Part shown: piece after piece, positions 60,976 through 62,391 of the stretch
How positions within the stretch are numbered: the first letter of the stretch is position 1
Layout: every line of letters begins with the position of its first letter
Source of the DNA: a phage
Assembly (NCBI GenBank): GCA_015370545.1
Contig: GCA_015370545.1_3932.1
Reading direction: 5' to 3' (one strand)
DNA: 64,000 bases
Translations under genes and position numbers: made by a program
Notes under the pieces: generated by a model
What the model was told of the DNA's origin: nothing
Database searches by the model: none
What the model saw: the letters and a program-made list of their open reading frames with translations, nothing else

Positions 60976-62391
60976 ATGAGCGAATTATTTAAACATGCGC
61001 ACCTTCATTCAGGTCGAACTGAAAATGGTGCTGTAAACCATACTTCATCAATGTCTGCTCTTGTAGACTTTTACAAAGCTGCTGGTTCAAGCCGTAGCAA
61101 TGTAGAAATCTTACCAGACCTGTTCTACAAAGCTTTGCGTGAGGATGTTGATGTTGCAGTTCGTATTTTACTGCATATGCGAGATGTACGAGAAGGTATG
61201 GGTGAGCGTAAAGCCTTCAGAACTGTTTTGCTTCAAGCAATTGAAGATAAAGTTTTAGAACCTACACAGGTTCTTCGCATTATGGATAAGATTGCAGAAC
61301 TTGGTCGTTTTGATGACTTTAAAATCTTCGTAGGTACTCGTTTTGAGACAGACGCCTTCAAGCATTTAGAAGCAGCATTACTAGACCCTGCAACAGCAGG
61401 TTTAGCAGCTAAGTGGCTACCACGAGTAAAACCACGCCACAAACAGTTTGTAAAACGTTTCTGTAAGTTTGCAAACTTAAGTGAGAAGGAGTATCGCACA
61501 CTGTTATCTGCATTGTCTGATACGGTTGAGCAAAAAATCTCTGCTAATGAGTTTGGTAAGATTGACTACAGCAAGATTCCTTCACTCGCTGCTGCACGTT
61601 ACCAAAAACTCTTTAACCGTAAAGATGGGGAACGTTACAAAGCTTACATCGAGTCCTTATCAAAAGGTGAGACTAAGATTAACGCTGGTGCTGTTTACCC
61701 ATACGATGTGATTAAATCTGTCAAGTATGGTAATGCAGATGTTGCTAATGAGCAGTGGAAAGCACTACCAAACTGGATGGCAGAAGGTGAAAACATCTTG
61801 TGTATGACTGATGTTTCAAGTTCAATGTCTTGGGTGAATCTTGGTTCAATCACTGCCCTTGATATTGGCGTGTCTCTTGCCTTGTATGTAGCAGAACGTA
61901 ATACGGGTTGCTTTAAGAATGAGCTAATGGTTTACTCAACAAATCCTCATTTCATCGAACTGAGTGGTGATTTGAAAAACCGTCATCGTCAGGTGATGCG
62001 TCATGTTGAATATGGCTCAACTAACTTACAAGCAGCTTTTGACCGTATTCTTGAGACAGGTAAGAGAAACAACTTGACTCAGAAAGATATGCCAAGTAAG
62101 CTTATCATCTTCTCTGATATGGAGTTCAATCAGGTTGATGGTGCAAATGGTCGTACAAACTTTGAAGTAATTCGTAGTAAGTACAAAAAAGCTGGATACG
62201 AAATGCCACAACTAGTATTCTGGTACTTAGCAAACCGTAATGGTACTTGCGAAGTGTCTGTTAAGGATAACGGTGTAGCAATGGTATCAGGGTTCTCTCC
62301 AGCCACTTTAAAAGCTCTGCTCGGTGGTGAGAAGTTTGACCCAATCAGCGTAATGCTCAAAGCAGTAATGATTGACCGTTACATCTGGTAA
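60976..62391 (+). CDS. von Willebrand factor A (vWA) domain protein
   Basis: 471 aa; MIDAS-type LCMTDVSSSMS in C-terminal half; helical N-terminal half. Confidence 0.55.
   Translation: MSELFKHAHLHSGRTENGAVNHTSSMSALVDFYKAAGSSRSNVEILPDLFYKALREDVDVAVRILLHMRDVREGMGERKAFRTVLLQAIEDKVLEPTQVLRIMDKIAELGRFDDFKIFVGTRFETDAFKHLEAALLDPATAGLAAKWLPRVKPRHKQFVKRFCKFANLSEKEYRTLLSALSDTVEQKISANEFGKIDYSKIPSLAAARYQKLFNRKDGERYKAYIESLSKGETKINAGAVYPYDVIKSVKYGNADVANEQWKALPNWMAEGENILCMTDVSSSMSWVNLGSITALDIGVSLALYVAERNTGCFKNELMVYSTNPHFIELSGDLKNRHRQVMRHVEYGSTNLQAAFDRILETGKRNNLTQKDMPSKLIIFSDMEFNQVDGANGRTNFEVIRSKYKKAGYEMPQLVFWYLANRNGTCEVSVKDNGVAMVSGFSPATLKALLGGEKFDPISVMLKAVMIDRYIW

What the first reader, a model, noticed from the sequence alone, without database searches (positions are those of the whole stretch)
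60976..62391. vWA-domain protein encoded immediately upstream of the tRNA array
The 471-aa protein has a MIDAS-like DxSxS motif (CMTDVSSSMS) in its C-terminal half and a helical N-terminal half. The combination of a helical domain with a C-terminal vWA domain is the layout of Ro60/TROVE RNA-binding proteins, which bind tRNA-like and misfolded RNAs; its position beside a large tRNA cluster makes an RNA quality-control or tRNA-related role worth testing. The Ro-like assignment is speculative.
Basis: inference. Interest (0 to 1): 0.5.

Follow-up and report, generated by a model that had tools for sequence, protein, structure and literature searches.

The report
Phage Ro60-like protein with Y-like RNAs
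The gene encodes a phage version of the ring-shaped RNA-binding protein Ro60, whose near-identical copy in a sister phage is already known to defeat a bacterial defence system, and four unannotated structured RNAs hidden between the neighbouring tRNA genes look like its long-suspected partner RNAs.

Summary

This is not new at the protein level. The 97.9%-identical Bas63 gp130 was reported in 2024 as Ro60-like, next to tRNAs, and as a counter to the ppl defence system. Relatives are already annotated 'Ro-like RNA binding protein'.

What I add is four unannotated structured RNAs in the tRNA spacers (E1-E4, 62724-63594, same strand). They share a 7-bp covarying helix followed by a conserved UWH-CAGCAA motif and a 3' G. 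E4 encloses a circularly permuted tRNA-like domain, as in bacterial YrlA Y RNAs. The same frame flanks homologous genes in 50 of 75 distant metagenomic phage loci and in Listeria, Mycobacterium, Campylobacter and Staphylococcus phages (102 hits vs about 11 expected). No Rfam family matches.

These are probably the protein's Y-RNA partners (about 0.6). Binding is untested, and gp130 alone suffices against ppl.

The parts
60907..60936 (+). Promoter-like site (TTGACA-18-TAAAGT) 40 nt upstream of the Ro60-like gene
   Evidence: 10 of 12 matches. This is a consensus match only: the number of sites in the region is not above shuffles (9 vs 7.9). It shares a TTTTAAAA(G)G upstream context with the sites at 62410 and 62501 (seen by eye).
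60976..62391 (+). Ro60/Rsr-like protein gene, 471 aa, DUF2828+DUF7788 family; ortholog of Bas63 gp130
   Evidence: It is 97.9% identical to bas63_0130 with the same synteny.
60976..61770 (+). N-terminal all-helical (HEAT-repeat, TROVE-like ring) half, about aa 1-265
61783..62340 (+). C-terminal vWA domain, about aa 270-455, Pfam DUF7788
61810..61824 (+). MIDAS DxSxS motif (D279, S281, S283). The remaining MIDAS residues are T349 (62020-62022) and D381 (62116-62118).
   Evidence: All five residues are invariant in 46 homologs. They sit at the ends of beta1 and beta4 and before helix 351-364 in the model. The assignment to MIDAS positions is inferred from vWA topology.
62410..62530 (+). Two tandem promoter-like sites (62410-62438 and 62501-62530) ahead of the tRNA / Y-like RNA array
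   Evidence: 10 of 12 each; consensus matches only.
62557..63972 (+). First eight tRNA genes of the phage tRNA array (Pro, Glu, Met, Asn, Tyr, Asp, Lys, Met)
62724..62800 (+). E1, candidate Y-like RNA (short type): GAC/AGA/AGACCAA-UUACAGCAA…UUGGUCU/G/GUC
   Evidence: It is syntenic in four Ounavirinae genera and in Bas63.
62891..62958 (+). E2, candidate Y-like RNA (short type)
   Evidence: There is a compensatory change UAC/GUA -> UGC/GCA in Suspvirus PC79-13.
63372..63449 (+). E3, candidate Y-like RNA (short type)
63459..63594 (+). E4, candidate YrlA-type Y RNA: frame helix + UUACAGCAA + V hairpin + T arm (63517-63533) + closed 7-bp acceptor-like hairpin (63534-63551) + UG + D arm (63554-63568) + 3' strand
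   Evidence: There is a weak Rfam tRNA hit at 63477-63541, 24.7 bits, below threshold.

Best explanation
The ORF encodes a phage Ro60/Rsr-type protein: a ring of helical repeats closed by a vWA domain with an intact metal-binding MIDAS site. It belongs to a sequence-divergent branch (Pfam DUF2828+DUF7788) that is common in large tRNA-carrying phages. Like cellular Ro60, it most likely works as a ribonucleoprotein. Four small structured RNAs (E1-E4) are transcribed with the first tRNAs just downstream of the gene. Each presents a 7-bp terminal helix followed at once by a conserved single-stranded UWH-CAGCAA motif, and this is the proposed protein-binding site. The motif sits in the same place as the GNCGAAG motif of bacterial Y RNAs. 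E4 also carries a circularly permuted tRNA-like module, as YrlA does, which could recruit tRNA-recognising or RNA-degrading host enzymes. The biological output, shown for the 97.9%-identical Bas63 gp130, is counter-defence: it neutralises the ppl (ATPase+PHP) system and generally improves phage growth. Shown here or in the literature: the fold, the MIDAS conservation, the RNA structures and their covariation, the cross-phylum co-location of RNA and gene, and the anti-ppl phenotype. Inferred: that the protein binds E1-E4, that the RNAs accumulate as discrete species, and how RNA binding relates to ppl inhibition.
Against: There is no direct evidence of RNA binding or of discrete E1-E4 transcripts. 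gp130 alone, from a plasmid or inserted into T7, restores T7 growth on ppl hosts, so the one proven activity does not need the phage RNAs. The conserved motif (CAGCAA) is not the published Ro-binding motif (GGUCCGA / GNCGAAN0-1G), and no Rfam family matches. 25 of 75 distant loci show no canonical element, and no shared variant was found there. With the motif as sole anchor, a bare 7-bp helix is only about 2-fold enriched (42% vs 19-22%). The individual folds of E1-E4 are not exceptionally stable (z -1.3 to -2.2). My ARAGORN 'un-permutation' test turned out not to discriminate the D arm (308 of 500 D-arm shuffles are still called), so it should not be counted. The protein does not match the TROVE HMM.
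Confidence: 0.6

Rival explanations
1. The protein acts on its own as a protein-level inhibitor, for example by binding Ppl or another host factor through its MIDAS/vWA face or by sequestering a nucleic-acid trigger in its ring. E1-E4 would then be an unrelated feature: autoregulatory mRNA flanks, or tRNA-precursor processing or stability elements.
For: gp130 expressed alone rescues T7 on ppl hosts and even raises plating above the no-defence control. MIDAS residues are invariant, and in other vWA proteins they mediate protein-ligand contacts (established knowledge; the closest vWA folds are the Rea1/MDN1 MIDAS domains, which bind protein ligands). In the window the elements sit inside a tRNA precursor region.
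Against: The elements follow the gene, not tRNAs. 24 of 50 element-bearing distant loci have no tRNA within 6 kb. In Mycobacterium and Staphylococcus phages the elements abut the gene with no tRNA array nearby. Within the Felix O1-type array they occur only in the 1.2 kb next to the gene. Co-location with motif conservation across four bacterial phyla at about 30% protein identity is the signature used to define Y RNAs. E. coli RNAs could substitute for them in the T7 experiment.
Confidence: 0.25
2. It is a virion-associated or assembly vWA protein (a co-injected or structural component), and the Ro60 resemblance is only architectural.
For: The Listeria phage homolog CKA15_055 was detected in purified virions with 20 peptides and 57% coverage. 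MoxR-vWA pairs assist virion assembly in some jumbo phages and an archaeal virus.
Against: The gene lies outside the structural module, between early-type promoters and the tRNA array. No MoxR ATPase is adjacent. The Bas63 ortholog can be deleted and shows a conditional, defence-specific phenotype. The fold match to Ro60 covers the whole protein, not only the vWA domain. The authors of the virion study themselves caution that mass-spectrometry sensitivity may pick up non-structural proteins.
Confidence: 0.07
3. E1-E4 are decayed tRNA genes or duplicated spacer repeats without function, and the apparent family is an artefact of a permissive descriptor in AT-rich DNA.
For: The bare-helix background is high. 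The elements sit among tRNAs. E4 contains tRNA parts. Only four distinct Ounavirinae E4 sequences support the covariation counted.
Against: There is a 9-fold excess over shuffles and 8-fold over the opposite strand. The motif is invariant while the helix sequence differs in 77 ways. Hits cluster within 500 nt of the gene. The element is present in phages of four phyla. A decayed tRNA would not keep a permuted order with a perfectly closed 7-bp acceptor-like hairpin in 18 independent cases and none on the opposite strand.
Confidence: 0.05

Closest known systems
Bas63 (Escherichia phage JohannRWettstein) gp130, counter of the ppl defence system (PhageMaP preprint, PMC11482910)
   Same: It is the ortholog: 97.9% identical, with the same DUF5681-gene / Ro-like gene / tRNA-array synteny. 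It is already described as structurally Ro60-like and adjacent to tRNAs, with the suggestion that Y RNAs might be nearby.
   Different: The preprint guessed that some annotated tRNA genes might be Y RNAs. Here the candidates are unannotated spacer elements, one of which (E4) is overlapped by the annotated minus-strand ORF bas63_0137. No RNA was identified or tested there.
Cellular Ro60/Rsr with Y RNAs (X. laevis Ro60-Y3; D. radiodurans Rsr-Yrn1-PNPase; S. Typhimurium Rsr-YrlA/YrlB)
   Same: The two-domain ring + MIDAS-vWA fold. Partner-like RNAs are encoded within about 1 kb on the same strand. There is a terminal helix with a conserved motif on or next to its 5' strand. One long RNA has a permuted tRNA-like domain and several short ones lack it, like YrlA and YrlB.
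   Different: A different sequence family: DUF2828+DUF7788 rather than TROVE+vWA_Ro60, with only marginal profile similarity. The RNA motif is UWH-CAGCAA, not GGUCCGA or GNCGAAG. The elements are embedded in a tRNA array. The known phenotype is anti-defence, not stress-related rRNA/ncRNA decay.
Thermus phage phiLo Ro60 with Yrl1/Yrl2 (PMC12135203; PDB 9kop, 9l5y)
   Different: phiLo Ro60 is deposited as a TROVE-domain protein, and its RNAs carry the CGAA motif. It was shown to bind its RNAs and attenuate host PNPase, and nothing equivalent is tested for this family.
Same-family homologs annotated 'Ro-like RNA binding protein' / 'RNA-binding protein' (Cluster L mycobacteriophages such as LeBron gp53 and Breezona gp55; Listeria phage CKA15_055; PHROG 850)
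   Same: The same protein family by tblastn (E 1e-60 to 1e-78). The CAGCAA-frame elements flank these genes too. HHpred linked CKA15_055 to D. radiodurans Rsr.
   Different: 29-34% identity. The elements lie upstream (Listeria) or downstream (Mycobacterium) of the gene. In Listeria phages the gene lies next to RtcB and RNA ligase genes, which the Felix O1-type window lacks.
Canonical TROVE-type phage Ro60 (Cluster C1 mycobacteriophage McGee gp233) and its Y-like RNA
   Same: The same overall architecture. Just upstream of the gene, a long stem is followed at once by GCCGAAG on the 5' strand, which is the position that CAGCAA occupies in the present family.
   Different: The protein is PF05731+PF25045. 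There is no CAGCAA frame near it. This is a single locus inspected, and the fold z-score is not significant (-1.1).

Membership tests
Ro60/Rsr protein family | N-terminal HEAT-repeat ring (TROVE domain), judged by fold | tested here: met
Ro60/Rsr protein family | Match to the TROVE sequence model (Pfam PF05731) and the Ro60-specific vWA model (PF25045) | tested here: not met
   Pfam returns only DUF2828 and DUF7788 at E<=1. A canonical phage Ro60 hits both TROVE and vWA_Ro60. hhalign of the family profile against that protein gives 65% probability, E 6e-5, 86 columns. The profile against PDB sequences gives Ro60 at E 0.46.
Ro60/Rsr protein family | C-terminal vWA domain with a complete MIDAS (DxSxS…T…D) | tested here: met
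Ro60/Rsr protein family | Cognate Y RNA(s) encoded nearby on the same strand | tested here: inconclusive
   Candidate RNAs E1-E4 lie 330-1,200 nt downstream on the same strand, and equivalents flank homologs across phyla. Whether they are the cognate partners is inferred.
Ro60/Rsr protein family | Binds Y RNA on the outer ring surface and single-stranded RNA ends in the central cavity | not testable with these tools
   Needs RIP/EMSA or a complex structure.
YrlA-class bacterial Y RNA (for E4) | 5' and 3' ends pair to form a terminal stem enclosing a large structured interior | tested here: met
   Helix covariation is seen within Ounavirinae and P778.
YrlA-class bacterial Y RNA (for E4) | Permuted tRNA-like domain in the order V, T arm, closed acceptor-like hairpin, D arm | tested here: met
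   T arm GAAGG-UUCGAUU-CCUUC, 7-bp hairpin, UG, D arm GUGU-AAUGGUA-GCAC. The hairpin covaries. 13 of 18 such modules have a strict D-arm, against 0.93% at random positions. The ARAGORN un-permutation test is not counted.
YrlA-class bacterial Y RNA (for E4) | GNCGAAN0-1G motif near the 5' end (proposed Rsr-binding site) | tested here: not met
   The motif at the equivalent position is UUACAGCAA.
YrlA-class bacterial Y RNA (for E4) | Recognised by a curated RNA family model | tested here: not met
   Rfam 15 reports only tRNA hits, at gathering threshold and at E<=5. I did not verify which Y-RNA models that release contains.
Structural/assembly vWA proteins (MoxR-vWA type) | Adjacent MoxR-type AAA+ ATPase, or location in the virion module | tested here: not met
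   The neighbours are a DUF5681 gene, small ORFs, the endolysin and tRNAs. The homolog's detection in Listeria phage virions remains unexplained.

The most novel reading that the evidence does not exclude
The CAGCAA-frame RNAs are a previously undescribed class of Y RNAs that are the obligate partners of the DUF2828/DUF7788 branch of Ro60 proteins. Together they would form a phage ribonucleoprotein found across at least four bacterial phyla that acts in counter-defence (ppl and possibly tRNA/RNA-targeting systems). The interchangeable interiors (none, a permuted tRNA, or a normal-order tRNA body) would serve as adaptor modules that direct the ring to different host enzymes or decoy different host sensors.
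Probability: 0.45. Interest if true: 0.75.

Novelty: new variant of a known kind. Interest (0 to 1): 0.55.

Why it matters
Ro60-Y RNA particles are well studied in animals and in a few bacteria, but their role in phages is barely known. The ortholog of this gene is one of the few phage Ro60 proteins with a genetic phenotype (it counters ppl), yet no partner RNA had been identified for it. A concrete, conserved and easily mutable RNA element makes the question 'does a phage Ro60 need Y RNAs, and for what?' directly testable in a tractable E. coli phage. The element consists of a 7-bp helix, the CAGCAA motif and an optional tRNA mimic. It would also assign a function to two Pfam domains of unknown function that occur in hundreds of cultured phages. 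It would explain spacer sequences that annotators currently cover with spurious small ORFs. And it would link phage tRNA arrays, tRNA mimicry and anti-defence. If the RNAs prove irrelevant, the result is still useful: the protein would be a transferable, stand-alone inhibitor.

Tried and rejected
1. Rfam at gathering threshold on the window and on 8 related loci, and at E<=5 on 59800-64000: only tRNAs and sub-threshold noise.
2. Pfam TROVE, NCBIfam and PDB sequence searches: no significant hit.
3. Alternative pairing topology, in which each 3' arm pairs across the following tRNA with the next 5' arm (a tRNA inside a Y-like stem): rejected, because only nearest-neighbour 5'->3' pairing gives 5 of 5 variable positions paired, against 2 of 5 otherwise.
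4. In-silico un-permutation of E4 followed by ARAGORN. It first looked decisive (0 of 500 full shuffles), but a stricter control showed that it does not test the D arm (308 of 500 D-arm shuffles are still called). I replaced it with a direct D-arm criterion.
5. Linking the elements to the very abundant non-coding RNAs of Listeria phage CKA15. The three elements map to cka15 25,216-25,610, whereas the published top region is 26,236-26,727. No coordinates are given for the other two regions.
6. Co-occurring genes. The DUF5681 gene is syntenic only in the Felix O1-like lineage, P778 and L012, and RtcB only in the Listeria phage among the loci fetched.
7. A variant motif in the 25 distant loci without a canonical element: none found convincingly.
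8. Promoter and terminator scans: three good -35/-10 matches in sensible places, but no enrichment over shuffles.
9. Supplementary tables of Chen et al. 2014 and of the PhageMaP preprint are not held, so I could not check which phages were screened for YrlA or the fitness of Bas63 g137/g138.
10. I did not build a covariance model, because the variable 25-180-nt interior makes a frame-only model weak. I used descriptor statistics with strand and shuffle controls instead.

Full report
WHAT IS THERE. The window is a Felix O1-like phage. The 5 kb around the finding matches 304 phage records, mostly Felixounavirus, at 90-97% identity. The ORF is exactly as described: 60976-62391, + strand, 471 aa, containing …CMTDVSSSMS…. 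Eight tRNA genes follow on the same strand from 62557. In complete relatives the array runs to about 24 tRNAs and ends at the terminase gene. A small DUF5681 gene (60523-60894) precedes the ORF on the same strand, and the genes further upstream (endolysin, Ig-like protein) are on the opposite strand.

THE PROTEIN. Pfam assigns DUF2828 to the N-terminal part (E 4e-29) and DUF7788 to aa 275-455 (E 5e-43), but neither TROVE nor a named vWA family. PHROG 850 ('RNA-binding protein') matches end to end at E 2e-183. NCBIfam and a PDB sequence search give nothing significant. The family is large: more than 2,500 hits. In an alignment of 46 members at 40-89% identity the MIDAS residues D279, S281, S283, T349 and D381 are invariant. 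So are two N-terminal clusters, RDxRxGxGER at 69-78 and GRxDD at 110-114. The family profile's second-best PDB hit is Ro60, aligned exactly at the DxSxS motif, but at E 0.46, so this was only a lead.

At the level of sequence it is a separate branch. A canonical phage Ro60, mycobacteriophage McGee gp233, hits PF05731 TROVE and PF25045 vWA_Ro60. hhalign of my family profile against that protein reaches only 65% probability (E 6e-5) over 86 columns around the MIDAS.

PRIOR KNOWLEDGE. The protein-level conclusion is not new. tblastn finds the family in 710 phage records, from Escherichia, Salmonella, Vibrio, Aeromonas, Campylobacter, Listeria, Staphylococcus, Enterococcus, Bacillus and Mycobacterium phages. 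Depositors variously call it 'RNA-binding protein', 'vWFA protein', 'DUF2828 family protein' or, in Cluster L mycobacteriophages, 'Ro-like RNA binding protein'.

Most directly, the PhageMaP preprint (PMC11482910) studied Bas63 (JohannRWettstein), whose bas63_0130 is 97.9% identical to this ORF and has the same neighbours. Deleting g130 gives tiny plaques on hosts carrying the ppl defence gene (ATPase + PHP domain), and complementation rescues the defect. gp130 expressed from a plasmid or inserted into T7 also restores T7 on ppl hosts. [quoted passage not shown]

Related observations on homologs:
- The Listeria phage homolog CKA15_055 has D. radiodurans Rsr as its top HHpred hit, and it was found in purified virions.
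- LeBron gp53 is moderately toxic when overexpressed.
- Phage Ro60 proteins with adjacent Y-like RNAs are established for TROVE-type proteins (Chen et al. 2014, PMC4201824; Thermus phiLo, PMC12135203).

THE RNAs. Reading the tRNA spacers, I noticed four same-strand copies of a motif pair, …ACAGAAGACC… followed 50-110 nt later by …GGUCUGG…. Both words are over-represented in the window, and the four pairs are the only co-oriented ones. The elements are E1 62724-62800, E2 62891-62958, E3 63372-63449 and E4 63459-63594. Each folds with the same closure: a 3-4-bp outer helix, an AGA/G internal loop, then a 7-8-bp helix followed at once by a single-stranded UUACAGCAA or AUACAGCAA. Each 5' arm pairs perfectly only with its nearest 3' arm, at 5 of 5 variable positions against 2 of 5 for other partners. 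This rules out a topology in which the stems enclose the intervening tRNAs.

The elements occur only in the first 1.2 kb after the gene and not in the remaining ~5 kb of the array. A formal descriptor finds no other on-motif copy in the 64-kb window. They are present at syntenic positions in Alf5, Bas63, Mooglevirus (Mijalis, Henu11) and Suspvirus (PC79-13), with pair-preserving substitutions such as UAC/GUA to UGC/GCA and A-U to G·U. Yersinia phage P778 has 53% protein identity, the same synteny and 24 tRNAs. It also has four elements, and in these the helix is rewritten on both strands (GGACUGU/ACAGUCC, GGAUUC/GAAUCC, GGACUC/GAGUCC) while the UUACAGCAA/AUUCAGCAA motif is kept.

E4 IS YrlA-LIKE. 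Chen et al. describe YrlA in this order: 5' stem strand with the Rsr site, V, T arm, a closed acceptor-like hairpin, D arm, 3' stem strand. That is a circularly permuted tRNA. E4 has exactly this order: T arm GAAGG-UUCGAUU-CCUUC (63517-63533), an abutting 7-bp hairpin ACUCGGC-AGAU-GUCGAGU, UG, then D arm GUGU-AAUGGUA-GCAC. RNAalifold on six syntenic E4 sequences, with no structure supplied, recovers every element. It counts three doubly compensated pairs in the acceptor-like hairpin (ACUCGGC/GUCGAGU, ACCCUUC/GAAGGGU, ACACG/CGUGU).

I first tried to prove the tRNA likeness by un-permuting E4 in silico and running ARAGORN. It was called a tRNA, against 0 of 500 full shuffles. A stricter control then showed that the call survives shuffling of the D arm alone in 308 of 500 cases, so I do not rely on that test. 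The direct test is better. Across all non-redundant loci there are 18 orphan T-arm-plus-abutting-hairpin modules on the gene strand and none on the opposite strand. 13 of the 18 have a 4-bp D arm at exactly offset 2, with a loop that starts with A and contains GG, against 0.93% of random positions. 17 of the 18 have U at the U8 position.

FAMILY-WIDE ASSOCIATION. One scan of IMG/VR returned 80 loci encoding homologs, 75 of them at 38-47% identity. In every distant locus where a permuted tRNA module was found, it sat in the same frame: a 7-bp helix of different sequence, then UUUCAGCAA, AUUCAGCAA, UACAGCAA or UACCGCAA, and a 3' strand followed by G(A/U)U.

I defined a strict descriptor: a 7-bp helix with no mismatch, NNN-C[AC]GCAA right after the 5' strand, and a G after the 3' strand. 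It gives 102 hits on the gene strand in 56 of the 75 loci, against 13 on the opposite strand and 8-19 in twenty block shuffles. There are 77 distinct helix sequences, the helix starts with AG in 62 cases, and 61 hits lie within 500 nt of the gene, many 4-30 nt after its stop codon. After refining by helix start and motif, 50 of the 75 loci have elements. All 26 loci that contain tRNAs have elements, but so do 24 loci with no tRNA within 6 kb, so the element tracks the gene and not tRNA arrays.

Cultured phages from other phyla show the same pattern:
- Listeria List-36: three tandem elements 75-340 nt upstream of the gene.
- Mycobacteriophage Breezona: three directly downstream, the middle one with a permuted tRNA module.
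- Campylobacter F361: two directly upstream.
- Staphylococcus S-CoN_Ph11: three directly downstream.

Interiors vary. 35 short elements have a 25-45-nt loop. 17 of 42 long elements contain a T-loop sequence. One element (L052:5758-5853) contains a normal-order tRNA-like body in which the 7-bp frame helix takes the acceptor-stem position and the 3' G the discriminator position. Rfam 15 matches none of these.

In the one canonical TROVE locus I inspected there is no CAGCAA frame. Instead there is a long stem followed at once by GCCGAAG on its 5' strand. That is the same position the CAGCAA motif occupies here.

LIMITS. Nothing shows that the protein binds these RNAs or that they accumulate. 25 of the 75 distant loci have no canonical element, and I found no shared variant there. 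Anchoring on the motif alone, a bare 7-bp helix is only about two-fold enriched, because the background is high in AT-rich DNA. The individual fold energies of E1-E4 are unremarkable. The very abundant putative ncRNA region of Listeria phage CKA15 (26,236-26,727) is not the element cluster, which maps to 25,216-25,610. Most important, gp130 alone suffices against ppl in a T7 background. So either the RNAs serve other functions of the particle (gating, tethering to nucleases, other defences), or host RNAs can substitute, or the rival protein-only model is right for that activity.

MECHANISM, AS FAR AS IT GOES.
Shown:
- A Ro60 fold with an intact MIDAS.
- A conserved, covarying RNA family co-located with the gene across phyla, one member being a YrlA-type tRNA mimic.
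- An anti-ppl phenotype for the ortholog (from the literature).
Inferred:
- The RNAs are co-transcribed with the first tRNAs from the promoter-like sites at 62410 and 62501.
- They are released by tRNA-processing enzymes.
- They are bound by the ring through the helix plus the CAGCAA motif.
- They modulate what the ring does, by analogy with Y RNAs that gate Ro60 and tether it to PNPase (PMC4201824, PMC12135203).
I put about 0.9 on 'Ro60-type protein', about 0.6 on 'E1-E4 are its partner RNAs', and leave the link between RNA binding and ppl inhibition open.

VERDICT. The protein-level story is already in the literature for a near-identical ortholog, so on its own the finding is known. The added value is a specific, testable candidate for the missing Y RNAs and a cross-phylum RNA motif tied to two Pfam DUFs. 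I rate this as a new variant of a known kind of system, of moderate interest.

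Noticed in passing
window 63595-63742 (+): Between E4 and tRNA-Lys lies a 148-nt sequence closed by a perfect stem of about 23 bp (AUUAUCUUUGUAGAUAAG…CUUAUCUACAAAGAUAAU) with several internal hairpins. MFE is -47 kcal/mol and the z-score is -5.1 (0 of 200 shuffles fold as well). It lacks the CAGCAA motif, so it may be a further unannotated structured RNA in the tRNA array.
   Followed up: partly
window 60523-60894 (+): A small basic DUF5681-type ORF immediately upstream of the Ro60-like gene on the same strand. It is syntenic in all Ounavirinae examined, in Yersinia phage P778 and in metagenomic locus L012, but absent from the other distant loci. It could be a lineage-specific partner.
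   Followed up: partly
window 63372-63594; L002 3490-3813; MZ501086.1 82748-83022: Related GenBank records annotate small minus-strand 'hypothetical protein' ORFs (Alf5_ORF044c, bas63_0137, bas63_0138) across E3/E4. Small ORFs are likewise annotated over the elements in the Staphylococcus phage S-CoN_Ph11 record (CDS0055, L090 5471-5560) and, per the search table, in the Listeria phage WIL-1 record (3 hypothetical proteins). These are probably mis-annotations of RNA genes. A PhageMaP 'g137' knockout would in effect be an E4 knockout.
   Followed up: partly
L052:5758-5853: This is a CAGCAA-frame element whose interior is a normal-order tRNA-like body (D arm, anticodon-like arm, T arm; Rfam tRNA 41 bits). 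The 7-bp frame helix stands in for the acceptor stem and the conserved 3' G sits at the discriminator position. This hints that the frame helix derives from an acceptor stem and may be processed by RNase P.
   Followed up: partly
L087 (Listeria phage List-36) 6575-10455, and 2460-3529: Downstream of the homolog lie an HD phosphohydrolase, an RtcB-type 'tRNA splicing ligase', a 'tRNA amidotransferase' and an RNA ligase, which together form an RNA-repair neighbourhood like the Salmonella rsr-yrlBA-rtcBA operon. The unannotated gap at about 2945-3436 corresponds to the CKA15 region reported to give up to 67% of phage transcripts. It is not a CAGCAA element.
   Followed up: no
window 60890-60915, 62394-62416, 62484-62507: The three best promoter-like sites share an upstream TTTTAAAA(G)G block before TTGACA, which suggests a common phage early/middle promoter class with an UP-like element.
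   Followed up: no
window 58013-59265 (-): Two adjacent minus-strand ORFs (294 aa and 123 aa) share a similar N-terminal region (…DF…F…GKRY/GGRY…W-P-E-(A/E)-D-I…). The longer one carries two tandem Ig-like repeats (ITQQP(T/S)NQT(V/I)NEGG…GATGYQWKK…DAGSYTCVV), so this looks like a duplicated decoration or tail-accessory module.
   Followed up: no
L092 (mycobacteriophage McGee) about 10375-10460 (+): Just upstream of the canonical TROVE-type Ro60 gene, a long stem (GGAGACGGAG…CUCCGUCUC) is followed at once by GCCGAAG. This looks like a short YrlB-type Y RNA, and part of it is annotated as a small ORF (gp232).
   Followed up: partly
literature: Listeria phage CKA15 (PMC12282133): The homolog CKA15_055 was detected in purified virions (20 peptides, 57% coverage) although it is encoded outside the structural module. 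Whether Ro60-like proteins are packaged and co-injected is unexplained.
   Followed up: no
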